Source: a virus (lineage: Duplodnaviria; Caudoviricetes). Taken from it: a stretch of 63,993 nt of DNA. Below the pieces are notes generated by a model. That model made no database searches. It had not been told where the DNA came from and saw only the letters and a list, made by a program, of their open reading frames with translations. Both the position numbers and the translations under genes were made by a program. The stretch is taken from positions 1 to 63,993 of IMG/VR virus record IMGVR_UViG_3300008448_006341; one strand, 5' to 3'. Shown here in pieces: positions 48,968 through 63,600 of the stretch (positions are counted from its first letter, which is position 1; each line of letters opens with the position of its first letter).

Positions 48968-48971
48968 AAAT

Positions 48972-49000
48972 TTGACACAGACAGACAGTATTGTTAAAAT
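48972..49000 (+). promoter_or_regulatory. Sigma70-type promoter
   Basis: TTGACA-N17-TAAAAT. Confidence 0.75.
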
Positions 49001-49048
49001 TATAGGGTGCTCAGGTGAGGCCCTATACAGTTCTTGCTTAAAAGGAGA
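49001..49048 (+). promoter_or_regulatory. ROSE-like RNA thermometer in the hsp20 leader
   Basis: TATAGGG...CCCTATA hairpin, then TCTTGCT-TAAA-AGGAGA. Confidence 0.65.
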
Positions 49049-49054
49049 TCTAAA

Positions 49055-49477
49055 ATGACACAATTAAGAACTATCGACACAGCCGCTCTAGCACAATTGA
49101 GCAAAGCACTAATAGGATTTGATCGCTATTTCAGTGCACCACATCACCAAAACGGTAACTATCCTCCTCATAATATTGTAAAATATGATGAAACCCATTA
49201 TGGAATTGAAATTGCTGTAGCTGGTTTTAGTAAAGAAGAAATTACAGTAGAAGTTGATCAAGATCAACTCACTGTAAAAGGACGTAAACTAAATCAAGCA
49301 GACAGTCGTTTTGAATATCTACATCGCGGGTTAGCCGCTAGAGATTTTGAACAGACATTTACTCTTGCTGAGTATATGGAGGTTTATGCGGCAGAAGTTA
49401 AGGATGGCATGCTTGTGATTGAAATCATGCGTGTTGTACCGGAAGCACTAAAACCTCGCCAAATCGAAGTTAAATAA
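49055..49477 (+). CDS. Small heat shock protein (IbpA-like)
   Basis: YPPHNI, IAVAGF, YLHRGLAARDF, DGML. Confidence 0.95.
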   Translation: MTQLRTIDTAALAQLSKALIGFDRYFSAPHHQNGNYPPHNIVKYDETHYGIEIAVAGFSKEEITVEVDQDQLTVKGRKLNQADSRFEYLHRGLAARDFEQTFTLAEYMEVYAAEVKDGMLVIEIMRVVPEALKPRQIEVK

Positions 49478-49484
49478 ATATCAC

Positions 49485-49507
49485 GGGGGAGGAAACTCCC
49501 CCATTTT
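49485..49507 (+). terminator. Terminator-like hairpin
   Basis: GGGGGAG-GAAA-CTCCCCC-ATTTT. Confidence 0.7.
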
Positions 49508-49518
49508 TGGAGTCTATC

Positions 49519-49821
49519 ATGCCTACCACCGAAATTCAAATTGATGAAAAGATTAAAAGCAAAATTTCTGAACCTAAACGCTGGAAAGTTGTACTACTAA
49601 ACGATGATACTACTCCAATGGACTTCGTCATGGGTGTACTCACAGAAATTTTTAAACACACTCAAGAGACAGCTAAAGAAATTACTCTAGAGATACATAC
49701 TACAGGTAGTGGCATTGCCGGCGTCTATAGTTTTGAAATCGCTGAAGTAAAAGCAGTAGAGGCAACTCAACTAGCAAGAGCTAATGGCTTCCCACTCCAG
49801 ATCAAAATGGAAGAAGAATGA
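49519..49821 (+). CDS. clpS: Clp protease adaptor ClpS
   Basis: VVLLNDDTTPMDFV, EIHTTG, GFPL. Confidence 0.95.
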   Translation: MPTTEIQIDEKIKSKISEPKRWKVVLLNDDTTPMDFVMGVLTEIFKHTQETAKEITLEIHTTGSGIAGVYSFEIAEVKAVEATQLARANGFPLQIKMEEE

Positions 49822-50351
49822 GCCTAAAAGAAATAACCAAAGATTTACACACAGAAGCAGAACGAACTATATTTGCCAAAAAGTTAATCAAAGGCGATCT
49901 TACCACAGAAGAATACGCTAACTATCTTTGGCAAATGGTACTTGTTTATAACGGCATTGAAGTTGCTGCCAACAGTCAGGGCATGTTAAAAAACTTACCT
50001 GATATAGAAAGAACGCACAAAATTTATCAAGACTGTATAGAACTAGTAGGTCCACATCATACACTGAAATGGAATCCCACTACTGTCGAATACTATCAAT
50101 ATCTCCTAGCATTAAACTACAATCAAGATCGTAAACATCTAGTTAAAGCACACATGTACTGCCGTCATATGGGAGACCTGTTTGGCGGACAGATGATCAA
50201 AGGTCGTGTTCCTGGCAAAGGTAAGTTCTATGAGTTCAAAGATCCAGAAGGACTCAAAATGGCCATACGTGCTGAACTTACAGATGACCTCGGAGAAGAG
50301 GCTCGCGTAGCGTTTCAATGGGCTATTAAACTTATGGAAGCACTACAGTAA
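49818..50351 (+). CDS. Heme oxygenase
   Basis: LKEITKDLHTEAE, HMYCRHMGDLFGGQ. Confidence 0.9.
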   Translation: MSLKEITKDLHTEAERTIFAKKLIKGDLTTEEYANYLWQMVLVYNGIEVAANSQGMLKNLPDIERTHKIYQDCIELVGPHHTLKWNPTTVEYYQYLLALNYNQDRKHLVKAHMYCRHMGDLFGGQMIKGRVPGKGKFYEFKDPEGLKMAIRAELTDDLGEEARVAFQWAIKLMEALQ

Positions 50352-50983
50352 TGTTAGAAACAATCTGCGAAACACTAGTAGAAGCCTATCGTCGTAATTG
50401 GATTACTAGCCGTGACGGCAACGTTAGTATACGGCACCACGATCGAGACCACTTCTATATTACACCCAGCGGTGTACGTAAACAAACTCTACAGCCTGAT
50501 CAATTTAAGAAAATTGGCATTATGTTTCAACCAGTCAATCGGTGGAATCATACAGATCTACCGTATACTGATATCAGCGCCAATTTAAAACCAAGTGGAG
50601 AGTTGCCTCTTCACTTTGGACTACAAAAAATGATGGGACAACACAGTAACGATGTTCGAGTAGTAGTACATGTACATCCTACATATTGTATCGCCGCAAT
50701 GCACGCCGGGATTGATCTCAGCACTATCAGCAGTGATTTTCCTGAACTTAATCGCTACACAAAGGTAGCACCCAATGTAGGCGATGTGCCTCCTATCAGC
50801 CAAGAGCTAGCTGATCGCTGTCACGAAAATTTACAGCTAGATGAATACGGCAACATTGCCTATGATATCGTAGGTATTAAAGGACACGGAGTTGTTGCCA
50901 TTGATACTAGCCCGTGGCGTGCGTTTGAACACATAGAACGACTAGAACACATTTGTAAAATTGTATTAGCGAGTAAAATATGA
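50351..50983 (+). CDS. Class II aldolase/adducin family protein
   Basis: DGNVS, ITPSG, PSGELPLH, VHVHP, GHGV. Confidence 0.9.
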   Translation: MLETICETLVEAYRRNWITSRDGNVSIRHHDRDHFYITPSGVRKQTLQPDQFKKIGIMFQPVNRWNHTDLPYTDISANLKPSGELPLHFGLQKMMGQHSNDVRVVVHVHPTYCIAAMHAGIDLSTISSDFPELNRYTKVAPNVGDVPPISQELADRCHENLQLDEYGNIAYDIVGIKGHGVVAIDTSPWRAFEHIERLEHICKIVLASKI

Positions 50984-51660
50984 GCATAGTTTGGGATACA
51001 CTTACTGAAGTAGAAAATTACTTTGAAATGGCCTTTAACGAGAAAGGCTGGTTAATTCACGAGCCTGGTATGGAACGTTTTAACCAACCTGGTTGGGTTA
51101 ATATGGTATGGGAAAGCGACATATATCGCAGGGCGCACATTGATGTAGTAGATGCTCGCGAAACTAAAGGACTGTGGATGATGCATTGTTGCGTCTTCCC
51201 GCATACTGACAATCCTGCACCTATTTTTGGCTTTGATGTAGTTGCAGGTAAGAATAAAATTACAGGTTGCTTCCATGACTTTAGTCCAGCAGGCGATCCT
51301 AACCATCCGTTAATTACATGGTTTGGTGAAGAAGTTAGCCGTTACGAATGGAACAAAAAACGTCCGTTACCAGAGTGGGCACAGCGTATTTTTACAGAAC
51401 ATATGGTGGCTGCGGGCAACGTCAGCGAACAGCACGAATTAGTACAGATTCTGGGTATGGCCCGTAAAACACTGGATCACTACTTGGAAAATGTAGGCGA
51501 AACTCGCGGCCACGCAGTAGATACCAAAGACGCACAGAACTTCTATGCACAGAACCAAAAGCAAAACCCGCATACTCCTAAAGTTATGACTAGTTTAGGC
51601 TTAAACGAGCAAGACGTACAAATATTCGTGCAGGAGTGTTTGTTCCCAGAAATTCGCTAA
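50980..51660 (+). CDS. Ferredoxin-dependent bilin reductase (PcyA/PcyX-like)
   Basis: RRAHID, MHCCVFP, PIFGFDVV, HDFSP, QKQNPHT, LFP; next to heme oxygenase. Confidence 0.88.
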   Translation: MSIVWDTLTEVENYFEMAFNEKGWLIHEPGMERFNQPGWVNMVWESDIYRRAHIDVVDARETKGLWMMHCCVFPHTDNPAPIFGFDVVAGKNKITGCFHDFSPAGDPNHPLITWFGEEVSRYEWNKKRPLPEWAQRIFTEHMVAAGNVSEQHELVQILGMARKTLDHYLENVGETRGHAVDTKDAQNFYAQNQKQNPHTPKVMTSLGLNEQDVQIFVQECLFPEIR

Positions 51661-51670
51661 ATATTATACT

Positions 51671-53245
51671 ATGAGATTTCGCGAATTTAAACTATTAGAA
51701 ACCCTAAACACAACGATATCTGCTGATCATTTAGATGGTCTAAAGGATGTAATTGCCCGCCGAATTAGATCACTACCCGATGATCAAACTACAGCAAAGG
51801 CCCTTAAAGATATTGAAGACCTACTTCAACATCTTGGATCAGGCGGACGTATTGGTTCAATTGGCAAAGAACTAGCTGACGTAAAAGATTCAGCAGTTGA
51901 CGATGCTAAAAAAGTTCTAGGGCGATTAGTATTAAGTATTGCGGAAGAACTAAATGCTTCTCCAGAGCAAAAAGAAGAATTTTTCCGATTATGGAAAGCT
52001 GACCAAATAGTTAATGTTGAAACTATTATTGATCCAGAAAATAGAGGTGTGAGCTTAAACTTCAACGATGTTTTTAATGGTTATTCTAGTAACCCACTAA
52101 TGACAGAATTTATCAATGAAGTAATGACAGTTGCTGAGTTAGGTATGGGACGCGGAGAGTTTGGTCTTAACGTGTTGAGTAAAAGTATCACTGTTTCTAA
52201 AGGTGGTAAAAAAGAAGAGACTGAAGATGGCGGATCCAAAAAAGGAGATCTACAATTTATTATCGGTGGCAAAACGTACCAGATAGAATTAAAAACTGAA
52301 CAAGGTGGCGCTGCTCGTTTTGGCGATCAAGAAGTGCGGCCTGCAGAAGGCTTTGAAGCAGCCGCAGTGGCATTAAACAACTATGTAAAGAAACACAAGC
52401 TTTATAAAGGTATTGGATTTACATTGTCTGGCAGCGGCATGAATTTAAATCAAGCAATACAATTTCATCAGGCATTAACTCCTGCTGATAGATCTACGTT
52501 TCTTGGCATGGTAAGAAAATGTCTAACTCTAATCTTTGGCAATCTTAAAAGCGGCCGCAAAGATCATTTGATGAGATTAAAAAGAAACATAAATGAAATT
52601 ATGGATGCTATCGAAGTAGGTCGCGGTGGTCAAGCAGCACAGGCGTATAGCCAAGCTAGTTTTAATTTTTATATGAGTCGCAAACACGACGACGGTGTAT
52701 TATATACAAATCTTAATAATAAAACTTTTGTCTATTATGATGACGCGGCACAGCTATTAGCTGCCGGTTTACGATTCCATGCATCTACTCCTTATATTAG
52801 TGCAACCAAAGATCCAGTACGTGCTGTGTATCCGCAGATCAGTGTTCAATCTACAACATTTGGTGGCGAGAAAGCACAAAAAGGATTAAAACAATTATCC
52901 AAGGGAAAAAATCCGTTTGATGATCCAGAATTTGCCAGCAAAATACAAAATTGGACTGCTGCATTAGCTGCTCCTCGCGGCGTTAAAAATAAAAATACTT
53001 TAAACAAAATTTCTATAAGAGTAGTCCAACTCATGGGGCAAAAGATGCCTACTGATCAAATCATTACTACATTAGAACTAGAGTTCCCAGAACTAGCAGT
53101 AAAAGTAAAAACTACACCAAAACTAACTCCTAGAGCACCTGCAAAGGTCTCTGTACCCGCACCTGCAGGCTCTGTGCCAAAGACTATGGCTCCTACACCA
53201 CAGCAACCAGCACAAACCCAACCGGCTCCAACAGCCACAGTATAA
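51671..53245 (+). CDS. Putative virion protein with possible PD-(D/E)xK nuclease core
   Basis: MRFREFKLLE; GRGE...KGDL...IELK; Pro-rich tail. Confidence 0.55.
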   Translation: MRFREFKLLETLNTTISADHLDGLKDVIARRIRSLPDDQTTAKALKDIEDLLQHLGSGGRIGSIGKELADVKDSAVDDAKKVLGRLVLSIAEELNASPEQKEEFFRLWKADQIVNVETIIDPENRGVSLNFNDVFNGYSSNPLMTEFINEVMTVAELGMGRGEFGLNVLSKSITVSKGGKKEETEDGGSKKGDLQFIIGGKTYQIELKTEQGGAARFGDQEVRPAEGFEAAAVALNNYVKKHKLYKGIGFTLSGSGMNLNQAIQFHQALTPADRSTFLGMVRKCLTLIFGNLKSGRKDHLMRLKRNINEIMDAIEVGRGGQAAQAYSQASFNFYMSRKHDDGVLYTNLNNKTFVYYDDAAQLLAAGLRFHASTPYISATKDPVRAVYPQISVQSTTFGGEKAQKGLKQLSKGKNPFDDPEFASKIQNWTAALAAPRGVKNKNTLNKISIRVVQLMGQKMPTDQIITTLELEFPELAVKVKTTPKLTPRAPAKVSVPAPAGSVPKTMAPTPQQPAQTQPAPTATV

Positions 53246-53311
53246 ATACATTTGAATTAAACACCTAGTTTTTAATTTTAAAGCTGGTGTTTAATGCATA
53301 AATATTTGTAC

Positions 53312-53680
53312 ATGGAAATACTCCTACTTTTAACCCTATTACAAATCAAGCACTGGTACGCTGATTTTAAAATACAGACCTACATGCAGACTGTGAAAAA
53401 AGGCGTGTGGTTAGATCCTATTGGCGTAAGCCATAGTATAGATCATATGTGGTGTACCCTTGTGGCATTGTTAGTCTTTAGTATTTTCTATCCAATTACA
53501 GTTGGTGCCATATTTTTAGTAGCTTTCATAGAAGGCATTGTACATTACCTTATAGACTACACTAAAGTAAAATATGGTTGCAAAGACAATACCAAACCTC
53601 TGTTTTGGAATCAATTTGGTCTTGACCAATTAGCACATCAAATCTGTTACATACTGATTGTATTTTTCCTCCTAGTCTAA
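53312..53680 (+). CDS. DUF3307-like membrane protein
   Basis: HWYADF..Q, HYLID..K, DQLAH. Confidence 0.8.
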   Translation: MEILLLLTLLQIKHWYADFKIQTYMQTVKKGVWLDPIGVSHSIDHMWCTLVALLVFSIFYPITVGAIFLVAFIEGIVHYLIDYTKVKYGCKDNTKPLFWNQFGLDQLAHQICYILIVFFLLV

Positions 53681-53746: not shown

Positions 53747-54199
53747 ATGAAAAAACACATAGCAGTTCTAATTATAACAGTTGCCTCTTCTGTACAGGCC
53801 GCTGAATTAGTACACCAATTTACTAGTCCATCCTTTTCTGGAATAGGATTCTCAAGTCATGCACTTACAATCTATAACCAAGAGTTAAGTCGTAAGTTAG
53901 CCATTGCAGCTGAAAAGAAAGCAGACGCACTTAAAGCTGAACAAGATGCTAAAAACACCACTATGGCTAAATTTATATCAAATTTAGAAAGTAGGATATA
54001 CAACGAGTTGGCTAGACAAATAACAGAAAAATTATTTGAAGGCCAAGGCGGACAAGCGTCCGGAACTTTTGCTTTCAATGGCGGAACAATAACATATACC
54101 AAGGTTGGTAATATGATAGAAATCACTATACGTGATGCAAATGGAAACGTCACTACAATGACGGTGCCCATTGGAGACTTTGGATGGCTATCACCATGA
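53747..54199 (+). CDS. csgF: Curli assembly protein CsgF-like
   Basis: Signal peptide then AELVHQFTSPSFSG (CsgF N-terminal F-x-x-P-x-F-x-G); upstream of csgG. Confidence 0.8.
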   Translation: MKKHIAVLIITVASSVQAAELVHQFTSPSFSGIGFSSHALTIYNQELSRKLAIAAEKKADALKAEQDAKNTTMAKFISNLESRIYNELARQITEKLFEGQGGQASGTFAFNGGTITYTKVGNMIEITIRDANGNVTTMTVPIGDFGWLSP

Positions 54200-55053
54200 A
54201 ATTAATAACATCTTTAATAGCAGCTTCGTTTTTAACAGGCTGTGGCACTATAGGTAATATGGTCAGAGACTTCGACGATCCTGTTATTACCCAACCTAAA
54301 TTAAAAACTGAACAAGGACTGAAAGCACCTGCCGCAGGATCTATCGCTGTAGCAGTTTACAGCTTCAGAGATATGACTGGACAGAGAAAAGCCAGCCAAA
54401 ATATTGCAAGTTTAAGTTCAGCAGTTACGCAAGGGGCAGATGCTTACCTTGTTAAGAGTCTACAAGAAATAGGCGGCGGGCAATGGTTTAAAGTTTTAGA
54501 ACGAGGCGGCCTAGATAATCTTATCAAAGAACGACAATTAATTCGCCAGATGAGAGAACTGTATCAAGGCGACAAAGCACAGCCTTTACCTCCAATGATG
54601 TTTGCTGGAATGATTTTAGAAGGCGGTATCATTGGCTACGACAGCAACACTTTAAGTGGTGGTAGTGGTGCTCGATTACTAGGTATTGGTGCCAGCACTG
54701 AATACCGTCAAGACGAAGTTACAATTAGTCTACGTGCAGTAAGCGTAGCTACTGGTGAAGTTTTAGTAGCTGTAAATGTCAGTAAAACTGTGTATAGCTT
54801 TATGGACAAAGCTGGTGTATTAAGATTTATGGAAGCTGGTACTAGAAGTCTTGAATTAGAAACTGGTTCAGCAACTAACGAATCTATGAACCGTGCTGTT
54901 CAGTTGGCAATACATGCAGGTGTTATTGAAATGATCAACCAGGGAGCTACTAAAGGCCACTGGGCATTCAAGCAAGAGGAGAAGAAAGATGAGCTGGTTC
55001 AAAAAAACTCCCAACCTGAAGCGAACAGAGAAGCACCTGCCACAAAGAAGTAG
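54196..55053 (+). CDS. csgG: Curli secretion channel CsgG
   Basis: Lipobox LTGC; VAVYSFRDMTGQRK, SAVTQG, WFKVLER, LIKERQLIR, EGGIIGYD. Confidence 0.95.
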   Translation: MKLITSLIAASFLTGCGTIGNMVRDFDDPVITQPKLKTEQGLKAPAAGSIAVAVYSFRDMTGQRKASQNIASLSSAVTQGADAYLVKSLQEIGGGQWFKVLERGGLDNLIKERQLIRQMRELYQGDKAQPLPPMMFAGMILEGGIIGYDSNTLSGGSGARLLGIGASTEYRQDEVTISLRAVSVATGEVLVAVNVSKTVYSFMDKAGVLRFMEAGTRSLELETGSATNESMNRAVQLAIHAGVIEMINQGATKGHWAFKQEEKKDELVQKNSQPEANREAPATKK

Positions 55054-55150
55054 TCAGGTAGCTGAAAAATTATGGAAGGAAACTGTTTTAAAACATAACG
55101 CAGAAAAGAGCGATTTAAATCCAAATAATAAAAACAAAGGAGCGGATTAA
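54989..55150 (+). CDS. 53-aa basic ORF overlapping the csgG end
   Basis: GAGGAG SD; MSWFKKTP...; stop 1 nt before the next ATG. Confidence 0.4.
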   Translation: MSWFKKTPNLKRTEKHLPQRSSQVAEKLWKETVLKHNAEKSDLNPNNKNKGAD

Positions 55151-55151
55151 A

Positions 55152-55832
55152 ATGATTAAGAATTATAGACAAATGGCATTCGTAATGGCGGCCATATTTG
55201 CTGGTTCTGGAGCATATGCAGACAACAAAGTCTACATTGAACAAGCAGGTAGCAGTAATACGGTTACTATTACTCAAGTGGGCAGCACAAACAGAGTAGG
55301 TAACGTTGGCACTGGTAATCAAAGCAAAATTACTGGTAGCACAAACACACTAACAACATCTCAATCAGGAGATGGCAACATTATTGATTATACCGTGGTA
55401 GGTAACGGTAATACGATTACTAAAACTGTAACAGGTGATACAAATCAGATTACTTTTACTTGTGGCGACGGAACAACAGCATGTACAACTGTAACAAGTT
55501 CTATGACTATAGTTGGTGAGCTGAATACCGTGACTAGCACCATTAAGGGATCAAATATTACAAATACTTTAAGTATAACTGGTGACAGCAATACTGTTAC
55601 ACAAAGTATTCTTACAAGCAATAGTACTAGCAATATTACTATACTAGGTGACAGTAACGCATTTACCAGCGCAATGAGTGGTGCCAGCGGAGGCACAGGA
55701 CATCATTTGATTGCTGCGGTATCAGGCACAAGCAACACACACTCAATTACACAAAGTGGTAGTGTTAATACAAATGTAAGCATTGTAACAACAGGTAATT
55801 CGAACACAGTATCAGTAACCACTGGAAACTAA
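55152..55832 (+). CDS. Curlin-like repeat protein (CsgA/CsgB-like)
   Basis: Signal peptide; about 11-aa repeats such as IEQAGSSN, ITQVGSTN, SQSGDGN, VVGNGN, VTGDTN. Confidence 0.78.
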   Translation: MIKNYRQMAFVMAAIFAGSGAYADNKVYIEQAGSSNTVTITQVGSTNRVGNVGTGNQSKITGSTNTLTTSQSGDGNIIDYTVVGNGNTITKTVTGDTNQITFTCGDGTTACTTVTSSMTIVGELNTVTSTIKGSNITNTLSITGDSNTVTQSILTSNSTSNITILGDSNAFTSAMSGASGGTGHHLIAAVSGTSNTHSITQSGSVNTNVSIVTTGNSNTVSVTTGN

Positions 55833-55833
55833 A

Positions 55834-56928
55834 GTGAAATATCTATGGCTGTTAGCTTTATTAATTGCATCTGGAGCTCAGGCAAACATCGGAAAGATAA
55901 CCGAGCTCCAGGGCGCAGCCGTTGAAATAAAAAGAAAAAATCAAGCAATCAAAGCAGGCAAAGACACAGTGATAGAAGCCAACGACACTGTCAGTGTTGG
56001 CTCTAATACTAAACTTACAATAACATTTGCAGATAACTCTACTGCAAAAATTACAGAAAACAGCAAACTAGTTATAGATGATTTTGTCTACGACCCTAAA
56101 GGTTCTAGCAAGAGCGCCATGCGTGTTACTTTAGGTACAGTAAGAATGGCCTCCGGCGGTATTGCCAAACAGAATTCAGAAAGTGTAAACATAAGAACTC
56201 CTACCGCAGCTATTGCAGTTCGAGGCACAGACTTTGCTATGACAGTCAGTGAACTGGGAGAGAGTACAGTTGTATTATTACCAACTTGTAAAGACGACAG
56301 AGATGCAACTAAAGTAGAACTACCCGGTAACTGTGTCTGTGGAGCAATTGACGTTGTTACTCAAGCTGGTAAAGTAAGTATGGAAAGTCCTTTTTTTGCC
56401 ACACACGTTGCCACAGCACAAGAAGTACCACTAGTTCCAGTAAGAGTAGATCCTCAAATTATCAACGCCAGTGGGGAAGGTAATTTAAACAAACCACAAG
56501 CAGTGGCGTTAGCACATGTTGAAAAACAAGAACGTAAAGAAGCACATAAAGACAAAAGCAAAGCCAATCAAGACGAACAACGAACTGCTAGAGACAACAA
56601 CAAAGATGCAGTAGATAAGAGAAAATCAGCATCTGATGATGATACTATTAATAGAGCTCTTCGTGGAGAAGTGGGTGAAATTAGAACTGCCGATGCTGGC
56701 ACAGCAGCTAATCCTTGTTGGCCATTTACCAGTTGTGGTAATGAAAAAGGTTACAACTGGTATGAACACGTAGACCCCTTACGTGGCAATATTATTCATA
56801 TTAGAACACTAGAAACAACAGATACAACAACATACAATATTTCAGTAAACAATGTTGACGTCAGCCAACGTCAAGTAGGCAGTGGTGCCAATGGTAACGT
56901 AGTAACGGTGAGACAATGGAACAGATGA
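55834..56928 (+). CDS. FecR-domain exported protein
   Basis: Signal peptide; ITFADNS, LVIDDFVYDP, IRTPTAAIAVRGTDF; curlin-like C-terminal strand. Confidence 0.88.
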   Translation: MKYLWLLALLIASGAQANIGKITELQGAAVEIKRKNQAIKAGKDTVIEANDTVSVGSNTKLTITFADNSTAKITENSKLVIDDFVYDPKGSSKSAMRVTLGTVRMASGGIAKQNSESVNIRTPTAAIAVRGTDFAMTVSELGESTVVLLPTCKDDRDATKVELPGNCVCGAIDVVTQAGKVSMESPFFATHVATAQEVPLVPVRVDPQIINASGEGNLNKPQAVALAHVEKQERKEAHKDKSKANQDEQRTARDNNKDAVDKRKSASDDDTINRALRGEVGEIRTADAGTAANPCWPFTSCGNEKGYNWYEHVDPLRGNIIHIRTLETTDTTTYNISVNNVDVSQRQVGSGANGNVVTVRQWNR

Positions 56929-58859
56929 AAAAGATACTGTTAACCTTATTGTTTTTATGCTCTAATGCATATGCTGACCTAACTGATATCAAATTCGGCC
57001 AAAGTCAGATCGCTGACAGTCAATGGAACGTTAATGCCTGTCTTAACACCACCACCTGCCAGATTTATAGCAAACAACCTGGAACAGCTTACAAGATTCC
57101 TTGGACTAGTGGGCAGGTACAATGGGCTGCTGGAGACTATGTAAAATTTGAAATGAGCGGAAACAACTCGTTTCCCTATACTGCAAAGCAATACGACAGC
57201 GCAGGTAATGTTAAATCTACACTGGGCAGTGGTAAAATTGTTAATATGGGTCCTGACTATTTTTTCTTTGTAGGTAGTGATAATAACACTGGACAACTAT
57301 TCAGCGGTAGCAGCGGTATGAGCGGAACAGCAGGAGTAAGTTGGACTGGCACACTTAACCCTTCGGTGGCACAGGCCAATACCTATGCTGATGCTAGTTA
57401 CTCTACCGTTCCGTTAACCGCAGGACAGACTGCAACAACTACACCTAGTAGTTCAGCGCCTCCACCTGCTCCGCCACCATCTACAGGGCCTGTTAGTCCT
57501 ACTGCTACTAATGCTAATTTTGGATTTGAATCTGGTACTACTGCTAACTGGACAATCAGTAATGGTACTGGTACAGAAAAAACTGATCCGTGGAGCGACA
57601 ATGGCAGTGGTGTAAACACTTCTAAAGGTATGGCAAACTATAGTCCAGACGGACAAAAGTCTTGGACAGTGACACCTTATGGTACATACATGCTGGCGAT
57701 TCAAGCTGGCGGCGGCAGTCCTAACTTTGATCCTGCTATGACAAGTTTAGGTTTAACTACTACACATATAACTGAGATAAGAAACTATCTAACAGGATTA
57801 GGTGGAAATAGTTCACCAACAAATGCTTCTTGGGCAAAACGTACAGTTACACTGGAAGCAGGCAAAACTTATGTTGTAGCATGGCAGTATATGAGCACTG
57901 ACTATGTACCGTTTAATGACGGCTCTATGATGACTTTAATACACTCTACTGATCCTAGTAAAGTGCCTACACTAAACAACAACACAAAGAATTATGCCTT
58001 GCTAGGATTTACTAATCCCGGCACAGGTAACTATGCCACTGACAGTTACGGTTCTACTGGTTGGCAGTTGGCTACTATTACTGTGCCTATCACAGGAGAT
58101 TATATACTAGGTTTTGCCAGTTTCAATCTAGGCGATACTGCGTTAAGTCCTATTTTGTTTGTTGACGATTTACAAGGCGCAACGTTTTTAAATGGCACAA
58201 CATTTGGTCCTATTGCTCCTAACGCAGGAAGTAACGCTCCAGTAACTGGTGGTGGTGGCAGCACACCCCCACCTTGTCCTAACAGTTCTACATGCTCTAC
58301 AGATGCGTTTGCTGCCAACACTGGATTTAACAATCGTGCCAATGTATGGAGCCAACAAACTGGCAACAAAGTTATCATTGAACAGATTGGTAGCTATAAT
58401 GTTATCACAGTAGGACAGTCTGGTCGTAAAAATTATTCAGAAATTGATATTATAGGTAGTAATAATTCAGTAACAACTATTCAAACAAGTGGATTAACAT
58501 CTGCTACAAATTATATGGAAATATCAGTTAACGGAAGTAATAATACCATAGAAAATAGACAAAACAGTACTGGTGGTGCTAAAGGTAGTATGACTACGGT
58601 TAACAACAATAATAATCAAGTTGAAATATGGCAGAAAGACAACGGCAATCATTATGCAGAAATCAACGTATCGGGCGGCAGCAAAACAGTTGGTGTTATA
58701 CAAGAAGGTAGTGGAAGCCATATGGCTAAAATAACTCTTACAGGCGGCGCTACAACTATCAATACTACACAAAGTGGCAGCACACAGCAGTTCTACTCAA
58801 TAACACATAGCTGTGCCCAAGCGAGCTGTGCGGCAATAACTGTTACTCAAGGGCAGTAA
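56925..58859 (+). CDS. Exported multidomain protein with C-terminal curlin-like repeats
   Basis: Signal peptide, Pro linkers, NFGFESG beta-sandwich-like domain, then IEQIGSYN/VGQSGRKN/IQEGSGSH repeats. Confidence 0.75.
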   Translation: MKKILLTLLFLCSNAYADLTDIKFGQSQIADSQWNVNACLNTTTCQIYSKQPGTAYKIPWTSGQVQWAAGDYVKFEMSGNNSFPYTAKQYDSAGNVKSTLGSGKIVNMGPDYFFFVGSDNNTGQLFSGSSGMSGTAGVSWTGTLNPSVAQANTYADASYSTVPLTAGQTATTTPSSSAPPPAPPPSTGPVSPTATNANFGFESGTTANWTISNGTGTEKTDPWSDNGSGVNTSKGMANYSPDGQKSWTVTPYGTYMLAIQAGGGSPNFDPAMTSLGLTTTHITEIRNYLTGLGGNSSPTNASWAKRTVTLEAGKTYVVAWQYMSTDYVPFNDGSMMTLIHSTDPSKVPTLNNNTKNYALLGFTNPGTGNYATDSYGSTGWQLATITVPITGDYILGFASFNLGDTALSPILFVDDLQGATFLNGTTFGPIAPNAGSNAPVTGGGGSTPPPCPNSSTCSTDAFAANTGFNNRANVWSQQTGNKVIIEQIGSYNVITVGQSGRKNYSEIDIIGSNNSVTTIQTSGLTSATNYMEISVNGSNNTIENRQNSTGGAKGSMTTVNNNNNQVEIWQKDNGNHYAEINVSGGSKTVGVIQEGSGSHMAKITLTGGATTINTTQSGSTQQFYSITHSCAQASCAAITVTQGQ

Positions 58860-58908
58860 TATTGGCACAGTAAAGTATCATTAGCTAAAAAAGTCTAATA
58901 AATACTTA

Positions 58909-59319
58909 ATGCGATTCCAAGAATTTAAAAATACTGAACCACAGTTTCTTCAAGCATTACAGGACTTCCTGCCCATTGCTATGCAAGAACTTGATATTAA
59001 GTCTCTTCCTAAAATCAAATTAGAAAAAATCGTTCCAGACGATGAACAACCTACTTTTGGACGGATGGACTACGACGACAAAACTATAACTATAGGTCTA
59101 GCCAATAGACATATAATTGACATACTGCGTACTTTGGCACACGAACTAGTGCATTGGAAACAACTGACACTAAACCAACTAGGCGACATGAGCGGAGAAA
59201 CTGGCAGTCCTGAAGAAAATCAAGCCAACGAAGTAGCTGGTGTTATAATGAGACACTTTAATAAAAAGTTCCCTCAGTACTTTCACACTAAACCTTTAGA
59301 TATGGACGTAAGCAAATGA
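58909..59319 (+). CDS. HExxH zincin-like putative virion protein
   Basis: MRFQEF; LRTLAHELVHWKQ ... EENQAN. Confidence 0.75.
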   Translation: MRFQEFKNTEPQFLQALQDFLPIAMQELDIKSLPKIKLEKIVPDDEQPTFGRMDYDDKTITIGLANRHIIDILRTLAHELVHWKQLTLNQLGDMSGETGSPEENQANEVAGVIMRHFNKKFPQYFHTKPLDMDVSK

Positions 59320-61370
59320 AGAAAATTTTACTTAATCCCTGGACGGCTCTGATCACACTGGCTGTAGTTTTATTGATCCGTGCTTGGGATCCAAGTTTTG
59401 TAGAAAGTGTAAGACTACGTTACTTTGATCAACTAATTACATCTGCACCTAAAAAACCTGTTCCAGTACATACTGTTAACATAGACGAAGCAGCACTAGA
59501 CAAATACGGTCAATGGCCTTTCCCTCGTGATGTATATGCAAAGATAATTCAAGACTTGTATAAACGAGATGTGGCACTGGTTGTATTCAATGTAATGATG
59601 CCAGAAAAAGATCGCTTTGGCAAAGATGCTGTACTAGCAGACACATTGAAACAGTTTCCAGTTGTACTACCCGCAGTAGGCAGTACAAAAAGTAAGAATA
59701 CAGATAGAGGCAGTCCTGTACAGCTAGTGGGTCAGGACCCAACTGGAAAAATGGCAGAGTATCATGGACTGATTAATTCCGTAGATGTAATAGCAGACCT
59801 AGCTGCAGGTGTTGGTATTGTTAATACATTTCCAGAGATAGACGGTGTTGTTCGACGCATGCCTTTGGTCATCATAGCAGGCGGTAATGTTCATCCTGCA
59901 CTGAGTTTAGAAACACTCAGAACTGCGGCCAATGACAAGATACAGGTTAAGATCGGGGATAAAGGTGTAGAAGCTCTACGTATTCCACAAATGGGCAAGT
60001 TTGACACAGACAATTTAAGTCGCATTTGGATTGACTGGTCATCCAAGCCAACAGAACACAGTCTTGCTGACCTACCAAAAAGTTTTAACGGTGAAGTCGT
60101 TATTGTTGGATTAAGCGCAGCAGGTCTTGTAAATCCTGTGTCGACAGCACAGGGAGAAGTGTGGCCGCAGTACTTACAGGCCGCAGTATTCGGCACAATG
60201 GTCAGCGGCAGTAATATTCAACGTTCAGGCCATGCTGATGATTTAGAAATTATACTAATATTGATCGCAGGCGTAGCACTGATATTTTTAATGAGGTGGA
60301 CCTATGTGGGCATTGCGGCAACTGTTGTTGTTATTGGTGGGGTCATTGGTGGTAGCATTTACGCTTACAGTAGCCATATGGTATTATACGACTCAACTGC
60401 CTTTGCAGTTGGCGTTGGACTGGTCGCTTTGCATGCCTACATGGTCAAGTTCGTCTCAGAGTTCTTACAGAAGCAACAGATCAGAAAGCAGTTCCAAAGC
60501 TACCTCAGTCCCGACCTTGTTGCCAAACTGATTAAAGATCCTAGTCTATTACGTCTAGGCGGAGAGGAAAAAGAACTCAGTATTATGTTTACTGACGTTC
60601 GTGGCTTTACCAGCATCAGTGAACACTACGGCAGAGATGTGCAGGGCTTAACCAGCATTATGAATCGTTACATGACTGCTATGACTAGAACTATTCTTGA
60701 AACAGGCGGTACACTAGACAAGTATATTGGTGATGCACAAATGGCTTTCTGGAATGCACCACTTGATGAGACCAAGCATTGTAAAGATGCTGTCAAAGCC
60801 GCACTCGAAATGTTAGGGAGTTTAGATGGGTTTAATAACAGTATTAAAGAAGAAGGTGTTCCACCCTTTGGCATGGGTATTGGCATTAACACTGGGGTTG
60901 TTGTTGTTGGTAATATGGGCAGCGAGCAGCGTTTTGACTATACTTGTCTTGGTGATTCTGTCAATCTTGCATCCAGACTTGAAGGACAAAGTAAAAACTA
61001 TGGCGTCCTCATTGTACTTGGTCCCGTAACTGCTGAACGTGTAGCCACTGACTATTTTACTCTAGAACTAGACTGTATCGCTGTTAAAGGTAAGAAAGAC
61101 GGGGTAAACATCTATACAGTATTCTACAATCCTTCTACTGAAGAAGAACTTAAAGAATGGAAACATGACAGAGAACTACATGATCTCATGTTAGAATACT
61201 ATCGTAAGCAACAATGGGATAAAGCCATTGCGTTAATTGAAACTGTGAGAGGCAAGTTTGCCGGTGGCATGGATCATTACTATGATCTATGGTTAGAACG
61301 AATAGAGGAAATGCGTAATGCGAATTTACCTAGCGACTGGGACGGAGTTTTTAGAGCCACGAGCAAATGA
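59316..61370 (+). CDS. CHASE2-domain class III adenylate cyclase
   Basis: IDEAAL..GQWPFPR, DGVVRR, three TM helices, FTDVRGFT, DKYIGD, YTCLGDSVNLASRLEG. Confidence 0.95.
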   Translation: MKKILLNPWTALITLAVVLLIRAWDPSFVESVRLRYFDQLITSAPKKPVPVHTVNIDEAALDKYGQWPFPRDVYAKIIQDLYKRDVALVVFNVMMPEKDRFGKDAVLADTLKQFPVVLPAVGSTKSKNTDRGSPVQLVGQDPTGKMAEYHGLINSVDVIADLAAGVGIVNTFPEIDGVVRRMPLVIIAGGNVHPALSLETLRTAANDKIQVKIGDKGVEALRIPQMGKFDTDNLSRIWIDWSSKPTEHSLADLPKSFNGEVVIVGLSAAGLVNPVSTAQGEVWPQYLQAAVFGTMVSGSNIQRSGHADDLEIILILIAGVALIFLMRWTYVGIAATVVVIGGVIGGSIYAYSSHMVLYDSTAFAVGVGLVALHAYMVKFVSEFLQKQQIRKQFQSYLSPDLVAKLIKDPSLLRLGGEEKELSIMFTDVRGFTSISEHYGRDVQGLTSIMNRYMTAMTRTILETGGTLDKYIGDAQMAFWNAPLDETKHCKDAVKAALEMLGSLDGFNNSIKEEGVPPFGMGIGINTGVVVVGNMGSEQRFDYTCLGDSVNLASRLEGQSKNYGVLIVLGPVTAERVATDYFTLELDCIAVKGKKDGVNIYTVFYNPSTEEELKEWKHDRELHDLMLEYYRKQQWDKAIALIETVRGKFAGGMDHYYDLWLERIEEMRNANLPSDWDGVFRATSK

Positions 61371-61492
61371 TTGATCCATTTGCTTTATGGTTTGATTATC
61401 AGGTGTGGTTAATGCTACAAATGAAATTTATGACACCTGCATACATGATGAGTAACAATGATGATATGCAGGCGTTTTTGAAACAGTTTAGC

Positions 61493-62209
61493 TTAAACGG
61501 TATTAAGGCTTCTAATCTTTGCAAGCCCTACGATTCTAAATAACGTAAACCACATCCAACCTATGTCAAATTCGAACCAGCGTCTGCTGAGTTTAGGATT
61601 TGCTGGATCAAGATGGTGATTGTTGTGCAGCTCTTCACCGCCAATTAAGATACCCCAAGGACTTACATTGTGTGAGCGATCTTTAGTTTCGCCATTACGA
61701 TATCCCCACCAATGTCCAACTCCATTGATAAAGCCAGCAGCCCAGAATGGTATCCAGATCATCTGAACACCCCACACTAAAAATCCCCATGGCCCAAATA
61801 ATAACAGATCTATGATCAACATTAAAAGAATGCCCAGTCGATGGTGAGGTGTATAAAGTTTGCGCTCGATCCAGTCTTTGGGAGTACCCATGCCGTATTT
61901 CATAACCATGTGTGCATCTCTACCTGCTTGATTATAAAATTTAACTCCGCCAAAGACTAGTTGCCAAATGCCAAATACGTGTGGGCTGTGCGGATCGCCT
62001 TCTACGTCTGTATTCTGATGATGTTTACGATGTATTGCCACCCATTGTTTAGTAGTCATACCAGTGGTCATCCATAACCAAAATCGCATAAAGTGACTCA
62101 GTGCAGGATGAAACTCAATACCTCTATGTGCTTGGCAGCGATGCAGATATAGGGTAACACAAACGATAGTTATGTGTGTACAGATTAATATATAGATAAA
62201 TTCATTCAT
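61493..62209 (-). CDS. Membrane fatty acid (delta-9-type) desaturase
   Basis: His boxes HRCQAH, HRKHH, HNNHH. Confidence 0.93.
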   Translation of the reverse strand: MNEFIYILICTHITIVCVTLYLHRCQAHRGIEFHPALSHFMRFWLWMTTGMTTKQWVAIHRKHHQNTDVEGDPHSPHVFGIWQLVFGGVKFYNQAGRDAHMVMKYGMGTPKDWIERKLYTPHHRLGILLMLIIDLLLFGPWGFLVWGVQMIWIPFWAAGFINGVGHWWGYRNGETKDRSHNVSPWGILIGGEELHNNHHLDPANPKLSRRWFEFDIGWMWFTLFRIVGLAKIRSLNTV

Positions 62210-63066: not shown

Positions 63067-63141
63067 ATGGATGATGATTTAACAAGATTTGTAATCGGAT
63101 TTGTTGCTGTAGTGACAGTGATGTTACTGATCTTGTTGTAA
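63067..63141 (+). CDS. 24-aa hydrophobic peptide
   Basis: TAAATA-N4-ATG; MDDDLTRFVIGFVAVVTVMLLILL. Confidence 0.45.
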   Translation: MDDDLTRFVIGFVAVVTVMLLILL

Positions 63142-63539
63142 GTTATTGCTGTATGAAGCAAAGAGAAAAGTGTTCTGGACGCGGGTTCGACTCCCGCCAG
63201 GTCCACCAAAAGGATATTTATGAAGTACACCGCATTGTGCCCAAATTGTTTTATTAGATTTGGTTGGGTAATGAGGAAAGGCTTAACAAAACATAAGTGT
63301 TTTTCTGATGGGCCTGCCATGGTTTCGACAGGGCAAAGAGTAACGGAGTGGACAGCTCGGGAAAGCAGAACCCGTAGGATTGGGGTAACCCGGTCGTAGA
63401 AGCAAAAACCATAAATGCAAAAACAGCATTTCAGTACTGGCAAGCTCCAGTTGGCGTTTCAGCAATGAACGACAGCGAGTTCGCCCTAGCTGCCTAAAAA
63501 ACAGAGTGCCGGGGTTGGCTACCTTGTAACCCAATAGCC
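63142..63539 (+). ncRNA. ssrA: Two-piece (circularly permuted) tmRNA
   Basis: T-arm GCGGG-TTCGACT-CCCGC plus CAGGTCC-A-CCA (ends 63208) precedes GGGCCTG (63310); 7-bp acceptor stem with G3-U70; tag frame 63417-63497 ends FALAA. Outer ends approximate. Confidence 0.93.
63220..63399 (+). CDS. ORF starting in the tmRNA intervening segment (CxxC...HxC)
   Basis: AAGGA SD; MKYTALCPNCFIRFGWVMRKGLTKHKCFSD/GPA..., 59 aa. Confidence 0.4.
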   Translation: MKYTALCPNCFIRFGWVMRKGLTKHKCFSDGPAMVSTGQRVTEWTARESRTRRIGVTRS

Positions 63540-63565
63540 GATAGGGCTTCGGCCCTATCTTTTTC
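63540..63565 (+). terminator. Intrinsic terminator after tmRNA
   Basis: GATAGGGC-TTCG-GCCCTATC-TTTTT. Confidence 0.9.
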
Positions 63566-63600
63566 TTTTGTTGCAAAAACACCACATTATAACATGGTTC

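What the first reader, a model, noticed from the sequence alone, without database searches (positions are those of the whole stretch)
53747..61370. Phage-encoded curli-type amyloid secretion coupled to a FecR / CHASE2 adenylate cyclase signalling module
Seen: one co-oriented, tightly packed run after a TAAATA element: csgF, csgG, small ORF, curlin-repeat protein, FecR protein, 644-aa exported protein with curlin tail, HExxH gene, CHASE2 cyclase. The cyclase retains both metal-binding Asp, the ATP-specifying Lys/Thr and the N-x-x-x-R motif. Known: CsgG/CsgF form the type VIII secretion pore; csgF/csgG have been reported in marine myophages of SAR11/OM43 (from memory); FecR plus CHASE2 cyclase pairs occur in bacterial trans-envelope signalling. 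Inference: the phage builds a surface amyloid on the infected cell and relays its state (or a ligand it binds) to cAMP. Possible roles are superinfection exclusion, aggregation, grazer defence or lysis timing. I do not know of a described system joining both halves.
Basis: partly seen in the sequence, partly recalled or inferred. Interest (0 to 1): 0.9.

Follow-up and report, generated by a model that had tools for sequence, protein, structure and literature searches.

The report
Known phage curli–cyclase gene cassette
A freshwater phage carries the viral gene set, already described in marine phages, for building curli-type amyloid fibres on its host, next to a membrane sensor that makes cAMP; it is a new member of a known kind, not a new system.

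Summary
Window 53747-61370 holds a tight, co-oriented run of csgF, csgG, an all-repeat curlin, a periplasmic FecR-domain protein, a curlin-tailed 647-aa protein, a small HExxH gene and a CHASE2 class III adenylate cyclase with intact catalytic residues.

Linkage is strongly conserved. CsgG and FecR lie on the same contig in 69 of 80 cyclase-selected IMG/VR loci, and the other 11 are too short to tell. In a second, csgG-selected lineage, FecR follows in 60 of 60 loci and the cyclase in 41 of 47.

PMC9599517 (2022) describes this viral T8SS + FecR + adenylate cyclase module in pelagiphages. HTVC008M and Melnitz carry it annotated in their deposited records.

Three details fail. The "TAAATA element" is not a signal, the small ORF is unsupported, and the HExxH gene is a lineage-specific insertion.

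New here:
- The phage recurs in freshwater metagenomes.
- The second curlin carries swappable lectin-like heads.
- The FecR protein has a plug-like N-domain and a weakly curlin-like C-terminus.
- Bacterial CHASE2 cyclases sit beside FecR-headed RTX adhesins.

Function is untested.

The parts
53294..53680 (+). DUF3307 membrane protein gene. It is an upstream neighbour, preceded by a TATAAATA motif at 53241-53248, and may start the transcription unit.
   Evidence: Pfam DUF3307 4e-10. PHROG 2470 'membrane protein' 1.3e-17. It lies directly upstream of csgF also in L009, L010, L013 and L016. Motif position. Promoter function is not shown.
53747..54199 (+). csgF: T8SS outer accessory protein, with an N-terminal signal-peptide-like segment.
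   Evidence: Pfam CsgF 1e-17 and PHROG 35372 4.5e-39. Orthologues lie beside csgG in the related loci.
54184..55053 (+). csgG: T8SS outer-membrane pore lipoprotein, with a lipobox-like L-T-G-C near the N-terminus.
   Evidence: Pfam CsgG 7e-51, NCBIfam PRK15184 4.4e-52 (below its equivalog cut-off) and PHROG 20175 1.3e-75. 48% identical to Melnitz csgG and 46% to HTVC008M csgG. Lipobox read from the translation.
55152..55832 (+). Curlin 1: a 226-aa signal-peptide protein made almost wholly of roughly 22-residue repeats; the likely main fibre subunit.
   Evidence: Pfam Curlin_rpt 9.4e-7. Autocorrelation peaks at lags 11 and 22 (0.75 and 0.69, against a maximum of 0.42 in 200 shuffles). The profile matches curlin genes in 7 of 7 alphaproteobacterial csg loci.
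55834..56928 (+). FecR-domain protein of 364 aa. It has a signal peptide, a FecR/plug-like beta-sandwich (about residues 18-215), a charged helical/disordered linker (about 220-295) and a six-strand C-terminal beta module (about 296-364).
   Evidence: Pfam FecR 1.8e-11. AF2 model mean pLDDT 77.8. VIA: PupR 6ovm Z 15.9, 4m0h Z 14.6, 5ix9 Z 10.9. C-terminus against curlin profile P 2.4e-4, but Curlin_rpt hits 0 of 51.
56916..58859 (+). Curlin 2: a 647-aa signal-peptide protein. It has a low-confidence N-domain, a Pro-rich linker, a CBM-like beta-sandwich (about residues 198-419) and a C-terminal CsgA-type beta-solenoid (about 480-647, 14 strands).
   Evidence: Pfam Curlin_rpt 6.3e-5. AF2 pLDDT is 80-90 in the repeat region. 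VIA: CsgA 8c50 Z 16.1, 8enq Z 14.1, CBMs Z 7.8-9.1. Lag-23 periodicity. Orthologues carry F5/8-type-C or PA14 heads.
58909..59319 (+). HExxH gene, 136 aa, no signal peptide. A lineage-specific insertion whose stop overlaps the cyclase start by 4 nt.
   Evidence: No Pfam, NCBIfam or PHROG hit. 932 homologues, some named 'ImmA (M78 family)' by a source. Found in 0 of 82 related loci. Found elsewhere in 4 of 5 related records. Contigs from other studies bridge it.
59316..61370 (+). CHASE2 receptor adenylate cyclase, 684 aa. It has TM1, a periplasmic CHASE2 domain, three TM helices, a class III cyclase domain and a C-terminal helical tail.
   Evidence: Pfam CHASE2 5.3e-35 and Guanylate_cyc 8.2e-20. 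PHROG 35576 2.5e-231 over its full length. PDB CyaB 3r5g 2.2e-29. Catalytic residues conserved. Full-length homologues in all 20 alphaproteobacterial loci examined. TM segments read by eye.
61367..61543 (+). Small 58-aa ORF overlapping the cyclase stop by 4 nt.
   Evidence: Matches directly downstream of the cyclase in 5 of 82 loci (L005, L006, L026, L051, L055; 39-54% identity). No Pfam hit.

Best explanation
This is the viral type VIII secretion ('curli') auxiliary module already described in marine pelagiphages, here in a freshwater T4-like phage. Shown by sequence: a CsgG lipoprotein pore with CsgF; two Sec-exported curlin-type proteins; a periplasmic FecR-domain protein; and an inner-membrane CHASE2 adenylate cyclase with a complete catalytic site. 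All are tightly packed and kept together in hundreds of phage contigs. Inferred: during infection, CsgG/CsgF export curlin 1, which polymerises into a surface amyloid fibre. Curlin 2 joins the fibre through its CsgA-like tail and displays a carbohydrate-binding head, making the infected cell sticky. The FecR-domain protein works with the secretion system in the periplasm and, where the cyclase is present, feeds its CHASE2 domain, so that cAMP reports envelope or fibre state to a host cAMP receptor. The HExxH gene is an unrelated small phage gene inserted at a junction that often takes insertions.
For: Domain calls and close PHROG families for csgF, csgG, FecR and the cyclase. The same gene order is annotated in Melnitz and HTVC008M. 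PMC9599517 describes the module, its ocean-wide distribution and metatranscriptome hits (passages). Linkage: of 80 cyclase-selected loci, 66 hold csgG and FecR within the locus (55 colinear upstream, 10 inverted downstream, 1 inverted upstream). Three more hold them 12.7-16.2 kb upstream on the same contig, and 11 are too short to tell. In the csgG-selected lineage, FecR is present in 60 of 60 loci and the cyclase in 41 of 47. Curlin 2's tail matches solved CsgA (8c50 Z 16.1, rmsd 8.4, 161 aligned; 8enq Z 14.1, 110 of 111 aligned). Curlin 1 has 11/22-residue periodicity above all 200 shuffles. Lectin-like heads: CBM-like in the window (Z 7.8-9.1), F5/8-type-C in L009 and L016, PA14 in L051 and L039. 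The cyclase catalytic residues are invariant or nearly so in 54 sequences. FecR and CHASE2 are neighbours in bacteria: 7 of 20 alphaproteobacterial CHASE2-cyclase loci, plus three papers. The cassette is contiguous in contigs from four other studies.
Against: No experiment exists for any step. The Melnitz paper saw no clumping of infected cells under its culture conditions (PMC9004378 passage). No CsgE was found in 5 records, two of them at least 90% complete, so gating differs from E. coli. No phage cNMP-binding protein was found in 5 records, so the cAMP receiver is unknown. The cyclase is dispensable in part of the family: 6 of 47 loci lack it, and the one cyclase-less locus examined (L157) has no CHASE2 gene nearby. 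The gap between FecR and the cyclase varies from 4 nt to about 16 kb, which weakens strict co-regulation. The CBM matches are of middling strength: no Foldseek hit at or below 1e-3, and Z 8-9 is near the aligner's background.
Confidence: 0.6

Rival explanations
1. The FecR-domain protein is a structural part of the secretion system (a periplasmic plug, tether or CsgE-like adaptor) and not a signalling relay. The cyclase is an independent host-takeover gene that happens to lie nearby.
For: FecR follows the curlin gene in 60 of 60 loci while the cyclase is missing in 6 of 47. The cyclase-less L157 has only T7-like replication and virion genes around the cassette. Model residues 16-111 match the pore-plug domain 5ix9 (Z 10.9, rmsd 2.2, 74 of 76 aligned, 27% identity) (meaning of 5ix9 from passages). 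No CsgE was found. Insertions of up to 16 kb separate FecR from the cyclase.
Against: The cyclase stays on the same contig as the csg genes in every one of the 69 cyclase-selected loci long enough to judge, and in two distant phage lineages. FecR-domain genes neighbour CHASE2 cyclases in bacteria without any curli genes (7 of 20), which argues for a FecR-CHASE2 relation of its own.
Confidence: 0.22
2. A pore-only device: CsgG/CsgF act as a gated channel or pinholin-like element that times lysis, and no fibre is made (the proposal of PMC9004378).
For: That paper found no aggregation and judged the module incomplete (passages). CsgE is absent.
Against: The module is not incomplete. Two curlin-type genes are conserved beside the pore, one with a CsgA-like solenoid. 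PMC9599517 likewise identified CsgA/B genes in the myophages. A lysis pore would not need lectin-headed curlins.
Confidence: 0.08
3. An import channel: an ungated CsgG pore lets cofactors or larger solutes in, and FecR senses an iron-linked ligand (an option raised in PMC7029224 and PMC9599517).
For: CsgE is absent; the papers raise this option.
Against: The FecR protein lacks the anti-sigma N-domain and the transmembrane segment: the FecR domain follows the signal peptide directly. No FecI- or FecA-like gene lies in the cassette, where every ORF is otherwise assigned. The idea explains neither the curlins nor their lectin heads.
Confidence: 0.05

Closest known systems
Viral T8SS/curli module of pelagiphages and of Methylophilales phage Melnitz (PMC9599517; PMC7029224; PMC9004378; GenBank NC_020484 and MZ577097)
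   Same: Same genes in the same order: csgF, csgG, curlin, FecR, second curlin, adenylate cyclase. No CsgE. The genes are absent from the known hosts according to those papers.
   Different: Protein identity is only 37% (cyclase) to 48% (csgG). The window belongs to a separate, larger clade: at least 598 matching stretches in IMG/VR, with the 80 kept being 54-78% identical. It recurs in lake and freshwater metagenomes, whereas PMC7029224 reported that its freshwater pelagimyophages lack the operon. Curlin 2 is longer, at 647 aa against 338 and 441, with a CBM-like head. An HExxH gene is inserted. 'CHASE2' occurs 0 times in PMC9599517.
Bacterial curli system (E. coli Csg; alphaproteobacterial csg loci)
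   Same: CsgG and CsgF plus curlin-repeat subunits. The solenoid matches solved CsgA. The 7 alphaproteobacterial loci examined have csgF-csgG with 1-3 curlin genes.
   Different: No CsgE. No FecR or CHASE2 cyclase was found within about +/-10 kb in 0 of 7 bacterial csgF loci, and no csg genes were found near 0 of 20 bacterial CHASE2 cyclases. In these samples, therefore, the join is seen only in phages.
Bacterial FecR-domain + CHASE2 sensor pairs (S. meliloti CyaD1 with SMc02177; Campylobacterota CHASE2 cyclase cluster; Burkholderia LysM-FecR + CHASE2 histidine kinase)
   Same: A periplasmic FecR-domain protein encoded beside a CHASE2 receptor (passages). The phage cyclase is a full-length homologue of alphaproteobacterial CHASE2 cyclases (HMM positions about 10-680, E down to 4e-189).
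   Different: No ligand or mechanism is known for any of them. In S. meliloti the FecR-domain gene was not needed for plant-signal perception. None is linked to curli.
LapA / MpIBP retention module (PDB 5ix9)
   Same: An N-terminal beta-sandwich that stays in the periplasm because it cannot pass the outer-membrane pore, followed by a flexible segment and a surface-exposed part (passages). The phage FecR N-domain matches it at Z 10.9 and weakly matches NCBIfam retention_LapA (7.2e-4, below cut-off).
   Different: LapA uses type I secretion with a C-terminal RTX signal and a LapG cleavage site. The phage protein has a Sec signal peptide and would have to use CsgG. Threading has not been shown.

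Membership tests
Type VIII (curli) secretion system | CsgG outer-membrane lipoprotein pore | tested here: met
   Pfam CsgG 7e-51 over model positions 6-207 of 210. A lipobox-like L-T-G-C is read from the translation.
Type VIII (curli) secretion system | CsgF accessory protein encoded beside CsgG | tested here: met
   Pfam CsgF 1e-17 over model positions 6-132 of 132. The gene overlaps csgG by 16 nt.
Type VIII (curli) secretion system | Secreted curlin-repeat subunit(s) with a beta-solenoid fold | tested here: met
   Curlin_rpt above the Pfam cut-off in both proteins. Periodicity of 22/23 residues. The predicted solenoid matches CsgA 8c50 (Z 16.1) and 8enq (Z 14.1).
Type VIII (curli) secretion system | CsgE periplasmic gating factor | tested here: not met
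   PF10627 was found in 0 of 5 records (the window plus 4 relatives, two at least 90% complete), while the E. coli control was positive. The literature reports the same for pelagiphages. CsgE is reported as non-essential for curli expression (PMC7029224 passage).
Type VIII (curli) secretion system | Amyloid fibre formation on the cell surface | not testable with these tools
   Needs expression with Congo red or ThT staining and electron microscopy.
Class III adenylate cyclase with CHASE2 sensor | Two metal-binding Asp, the substrate Lys and Thr, and the transition-state Asn and Arg | tested here: met
   D427, D473, K469 and R554 are invariant, and T543 and N550 are present in at least 90% of 54 sequences. 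Aligned to CyaB 3r5g and CyaC 1wc0/1wc1. The roles assigned to these positions are recalled.
Class III adenylate cyclase with CHASE2 sensor | Extracytoplasmic CHASE2 domain between transmembrane segments | tested here: met
   Pfam CHASE2 5.3e-35, residues 14-320. The hydrophobic segments on either side were read by eye; no topology program was run.
FecR anti-sigma regulators (FecI-FecR-FecA cell-surface signalling) | Periplasmic FecR domain | tested here: met
   Pfam FecR 1.8e-11. The fold matches PupR 6ovm (Z 15.9) and 4m0h (Z 14.6).
FecR anti-sigma regulators (FecI-FecR-FecA cell-surface signalling) | Cytoplasmic anti-sigma domain plus a transmembrane helix, with FecI and FecA partners | tested here: not met
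   The FecR domain starts right after a 17-residue signal-peptide-like segment. No sigma factor or TonB-dependent receptor lies among the cassette ORFs. It is therefore a FecR-domain protein, not an iron-citrate regulator.
Viral T8SS module of pelagiphages (PMC9599517) | Phage-borne csgF-csgG-curlin-FecR, often followed by a second curlin and an adenylate cyclase, in conserved order | tested here: met
   The order in the window equals that in HTVC008M and Melnitz and matches the paper's description.
LapA-type retention module | N-terminal beta-sandwich of the 5ix9 fold | tested here: met
   VIA Z 10.9, rmsd 2.2, 74 of 76 residues aligned, 27% identity. Foldseek E 2.5e-3, TM 0.80 on the target.
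LapA-type retention module | Type I secretion signal (RTX) and retention in a TolC-like pore | tested here: not met
   There are no RTX repeats in the phage protein, and it has a Sec-type signal peptide. It resembles a retention module in fold but is not a member of the LapA system.

The most novel reading that the evidence does not exclude
The FecR-domain protein is a pore-threaded tether that physically joins the two halves. Its folded N-terminal plug stays in the periplasm next to the CHASE2 domain, its roughly 80-residue linker spans CsgG, and its curlin-like C-terminus is built into the lectin-decorated fibre. Load on or occupancy of a surface amyloid adhesin is thereby reported as cAMP. 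The same logic would hold in Alphaproteobacteria, where CHASE2 cyclases sit beside giant adhesins that have a FecR-type N-terminal head and a C-terminal RTX type I secretion signal. CHASE2, whose signal is unknown, would then be a sensor of the periplasmic stubs of surface adhesins.
Probability: 0.18. Interest if true: 0.8.

Novelty: new member of a known kind. Interest (0 to 1): 0.4.

Why it matters
The module gives the host a surface structure that, according to the published work, it does not encode itself. It is one of the largest multi-gene auxiliary sets in aquatic phages. This window shows that the module is not confined to marine SAR11/OM43 phages. It sits in a large clade of big freshwater phages, and its second curlin carries interchangeable sugar-binding heads, which favours an adhesion role over a pore-only role. 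The FecR/CHASE2 part gives a concrete, testable entry to an open question: what CHASE2 domains sense. None of this changes the main verdict that the joined system is already in print.

Tried and rejected
1. Complex prediction of FecR residues 18-215 with CHASE2 residues 24-310, both given as alignments, scored 0.00 in both runs and returned 'no answer'. It counts neither for nor against binding.

2. Expression. No RNA holder was listed among the 24 runs returned, so nothing can be said about transcription. The reads laid were DNA contigs only.

3. FecR C-terminus as a curlin repeat.
- For: hhalign P 3e-4 and 6e-4 in my script, with the reversed control and five column shuffles giving P 0.11-0.98. 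The tool's own hhalign gave P 2.4e-4 and probability 43.9%.
- Against: Pfam Curlin_rpt hit 0 of 51 FecR proteins at E <= 0.1. The profile search against PDB sequences gave nothing better than E 0.29 and no CsgA. The Atlas feature search gave no usable hit. There is no internal periodicity above shuffles. The C-terminal module was barely tested by the structural searches, because the N-domain filled the lists.
- I keep it as a lead only.

4. The genome-contig scan with the cyclase alignment used very specific patterns. It returned 10 MAG contigs, 8 with a full-length CHASE2-cyclase match. Five of the 10 carry the whole cassette. L090 has an integrase, a Cas4-like exonuclease and a Sak4-like gene, so it is phage DNA binned into a MAG. 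The scan did not reach true cellular homologues, so I sampled Alphaproteobacteria with the genome search instead.

5. Bacterial neighbourhoods were screened with HMMs built from phage sequences, so divergent FecR or curlin genes could be missed. The 20 CHASE2 loci were the top-scoring rows with enough flank out of 150 listed (400 matches in all), not a random draw. Only one class was sampled.

6. The HExxH protein against the 524-aa upstream protein shares only the first 7 residues (E 0.16). I rejected it as a relation.

7. TAAATA/TATAAATA as promoter evidence: no enrichment.

8. Small ORF 54989-55150: rejected.

9. No glutamine riboswitch reached the Rfam gathering threshold near the tmRNA.

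11. Supplementary files of papers are closed. Fig. S3 and Data Set S1 of PMC9599517 may already show domain-level detail (CHASE2, curlin heads) or non-marine members that I could not see. Claims of 'not in print' rest on searches, and on term counts inside three papers.

12. Papers seen only as passages via 'find': PMC7029224, PMC9004378, PMC9599517, PMC5498481, PMC5192318, PMC9239204, bioRxiv 10.1101/198937 and PMC5550230. All other papers were seen as search listings only.

Full report
WHAT IS THERE. Window 53747-61370 holds, all on the + strand:
- csgF (53747-54199)
- csgG (54184-55053)
- a 226-aa curlin-repeat protein (55152-55832)
- a 364-aa FecR-domain protein (55834-56928)
- a 647-aa protein with a curlin-repeat tail (56916-58859)
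- a 136-aa HExxH protein (58909-59319)
- a 684-aa CHASE2 + class III cyclase protein (59316-61370)

The gaps between them are -16, 98, 1, -13, 49 and -4 nt. Pfam supports every domain above its curated cut-off. Five of the seven proteins begin with a signal-peptide-like segment, and CsgG has a lipobox-like L-T-G-C. The HExxH protein has no such segment, and the cyclase begins with a transmembrane segment (read).

The cyclase aligns to solved bacterial class III cyclases (CyaB 3r5g at 2.2e-29, CyaC 1wc0/1wc1). In 54 aligned phage cyclases D427, K469, D473, R539 and R554 are invariant, and T543 and N550 are present in at least 90%.

IS IT PHAGE. The window is an IMG/VR virus record, a fragment that CheckV rates 13% complete. 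Nearly all its ORFs lie on one strand. It has PHROG hits to both RNR subunits, a virion structural protein and an endolysin. Around the cassette lie Hsp70, Hsp20, heme oxygenase, a class II aldolase, a bilin reductase, a fatty-acid desaturase and a permuted tmRNA.

Near-identical DNA is held by 20 runs from 13 studies labelled lake water, freshwater or (four runs) 'fungus metagenome'; two of those runs may be the source. Contigs from four other studies cover the stretch. One contig of 1134 nt spans 58293-59426, bridging curlin 2, HExxH and the cyclase. The insertion is therefore real and not an assembly artefact.

DETAILS OF THE OBSERVATION THAT FAIL.
- 'TAAATA' occurs 48 times against 73 +/- 10 expected. 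TATAAATA occurs 5 times against 5.5 expected. The one near the cassette sits before the DUF3307 gene (53241-53248).
- The 53-aa 'small ORF' overlaps the end of csgG, and only the overlapping part finds matches in relatives.
- The HExxH gene has no counterpart within +/-10 kb of the cyclase in any of 82 loci. It belongs to a large family of small phage proteins: 932 homologues, some named ImmA/M78 by a source. It lies far from the cassette in 4 of 5 related records.

LINKAGE. Of these 80:
- 66 hold csgG and FecR within the locus: 55 colinear upstream, 10 inverted downstream and 1 inverted upstream.
- 65 hold csgF, csgG, curlin 1 and FecR together.
- The two loci with full flanks but no csg genes (L007, L012), and also L008, carry csgG and FecR on the same strand 12.7-16.2 kb upstream on the same contig.
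- The remaining 11 are too short to judge. Six of them show curlin 2 at their edge. Two of the 11, L005 and L057, were searched contig-wide; those contigs are only 10.8 and 9.1 kb and hold neither gene.

A second lineage was selected by csgG instead (128 of 138 candidates confirmed, 80 kept). Its contigs are small, and L157 has T7-like genes. It shows csgF-csgG-curlin-FecR-cyclase without a second curlin. FecR is present in 60 of 60 loci with at least 2 kb downstream of csgG. The cyclase is present in 41 of 47 loci with at least 3.5 kb downstream. Six loci (L152, L155-L159) lack it.

However, FecR is tied to the curli genes more tightly than the cyclase is.

ALREADY KNOWN. HTVC008M and Melnitz have the same six genes in the same order, annotated as such in their records.
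- PMC7029224 (2020) reported the 'curli operon' in pelagimyophages and noted its absence from its freshwater group.
- PMC9004378 (2022) discussed a pore and lysis-timing role. Neither of these two papers contains the words cyclase or FecR.
- PMC9599517 (2022) explicitly describes the viral T8SS cluster with FecR, a histidine kinase and an adenylate cyclase. It finds CsgA/B genes in the myophages too, maps the genes across 65 ocean stations and reports metatranscriptome hits.

The joined system is therefore in print. That paper reads FecR as an iron-linked regulator and never uses the word CHASE2 (0 occurrences).

WHAT THE PARTS LOOK LIKE.

Curlin 1 has strong 11/22-residue periodicity, about nine repeats.

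Curlin 2 was modelled with 22 sequences (mean pLDDT 62, but 80-90 in the tail). It ends in 14 short strands. These match solved CsgA best (8c50 Z 16.1; E. coli fibril 8enq Z 14.1, 110 of 111 residues). Its middle domain (198-419) matches carbohydrate-binding modules at middling strength (8xmz Z 9.1, 2c4x Z 8.2, 2xom Z 7.8; Foldseek E 3e-3 to 3e-2). In relatives the tail is conserved while the head is swapped or absent: F5/8-type-C in L009 and L016, PA14 in L051 and L039, and no head in forms of 166-207 aa. This pattern fits a fibre-anchored lectin.

The FecR protein was modelled with 51 sequences (pLDDT 77.8). It has a confident beta-sandwich (18-192), a helical then disordered linker (222-293) and a six-strand C-terminal module (300-361; pLDDT 64-79). 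The N-domain matches the periplasmic signalling domain of PupR/FecR-type regulators (6ovm Z 15.9; 4m0h Z 14.6). Residues 16-111 match the whole of 5ix9 (Z 10.9, rmsd 2.2, 27% identity). 5ix9 is the periplasmic N-terminal domain of the MpIBP adhesin, described as too large to pass the TolC-like pore, and it was used as the template for the LapA retention module (passages).

The phage protein has no anti-sigma domain or membrane helix, so it is not a FecR regulator in the iron-citrate sense.

Its C-terminal 45 residues align end-to-end with the last two repeats of curlin 1 (P 2.4e-4, probability 44%; controls). Pfam's Curlin_rpt model, the PDB profile search and the Atlas do not support this.

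CELLULAR CONTEXT.
- CsgF was found in 9 of 401 sampled alphaproteobacterial genomes. The 7 loci fetched all have csgF-csgG and curlin genes, and none has a FecR or CHASE2-cyclase gene within about +/-10 kb.
- CHASE2 was found in 180 of 401 genomes. The 20 loci fetched all encode full-length homologues of the phage cyclase. Seven have a FecR-domain ORF within +/-8 kb, and none has csg genes.
- Three of the six FecR-domain partner ORFs scanned are giant proteins with a FecR domain near the N-terminus followed by cadherin/Ig repeats. Two of them (L191, L199) also have RTX repeats. This is the LapA-like layout.
- No open paper combines CHASE2, adhesin and adenylate cyclase.

In these limited samples the FecR-CHASE2 pair and the curli set are separate in cells and joined only in phages, which agrees with PMC9599517.

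MECHANISM.

Shown: gene content, conservation of linkage, an intact catalytic site, export signals and a CsgA-like solenoid.

Inferred: CsgG/CsgF export curlin 1 into a fibre. Curlin 2 decorates it with a sugar-binding head. The FecR-domain protein acts at the periplasmic face of the system and, where present, the CHASE2 cyclase converts its state into cAMP.

The receiver of cAMP is unknown: no cNMP-binding gene was found in 5 phage records. The complex prediction gave no verdict.

The boldest reading that is still open is that the FecR protein is threaded through CsgG. Its plug would stay beside CHASE2 and its C-terminus would be built into the fibre. I put this at about 0.18.

VERDICT. The system is already described, and this window is a new freshwater member of it with some new anatomical detail. 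Interest 0.4.

Noticed in passing
window 63087-63588 (+): A permuted (two-piece) tmRNA gene. ARAGORN predicts a tag peptide ending ALAA. Rfam gives tmRNA_permuted at 109.6 bits and beta_tmRNA at 85.3 bits (cut-off 84). Melnitz also encodes a two-piece tmRNA, but no glutamine riboswitch reached the Rfam threshold here.
   Followed up: partly
window 47084-51660 (+): A run of auxiliary genes: Hsp70/DnaK (6.9e-257), Hsp20, heme oxygenase, a class II aldolase and a ferredoxin-dependent bilin reductase. A heme oxygenase plus bilin reductase pair sits in a phage of unknown, possibly non-photosynthetic, host.
   Followed up: partly
window 61493-62209 (-): A fatty-acid desaturase gene on the opposite strand just after the cyclase. 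It lies near the cyclase in many relatives (for example L005, L009, L017, L080), so it is a conserved neighbour.
   Followed up: no
L191 1892-4906, L199 3727-7848, L197 1330-7077, L198 11707-17100 (alphaproteobacterial genomes): Giant ORFs beside CHASE2 adenylate cyclases. Each has a FecR domain near the N-terminus. Pfam, run on three of them, finds cadherin/Big_9 repeats in all three, RTX repeats in L191 and L199, and LamG and BNR in L197. L198 runs off its locus and was not scanned. This is a LapA-like adhesin layout with a FecR-type head.
   Followed up: partly
L096 = G005:C1:126671-130012: In one related record of 344 kb (99% complete), the HExxH homologue (45% identity) lies inside an open frame of 1680 aa, so it may be fused to a much larger protein there.
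   Followed up: no
L090 (11.3-kb MAG contig labelled Nisaea, GC 0.52) and L105: The same csgF-csgG-curlin-FecR-cyclase cassette lies next to a tyrosine integrase, a Cas4-like exonuclease and a Sak4-like annealing protein. This suggests a temperate or integrated phage carrying the module. L105 in IMG/VR has a csgG match that is 100% identical.
   Followed up: partly
window, whole; G001, G003, G005: CheckV rates the 64-kb window 13% complete. Related records of 250-344 kb are rated 71-99% complete, so this clade may consist of very large (jumbo-size) phages, unlike the 141-147 kb marine isolates.
   Followed up: no
A2 alignment, linker columns (window FecR residues about 215-295): The FecR linker consensus shows a recurring L-D-x-N-x-L type motif across lineages, although the window's own linker is mostly charged. 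A conserved motif in a supposedly flexible linker may mark a binding site.
   Followed up: no
window, 5 sites (9483, 22871, 47021, 53241, 63612): All five TATAAATA copies lie on the + strand, the coding strand of nearly all genes, although their number is not above chance.
   Followed up: partly
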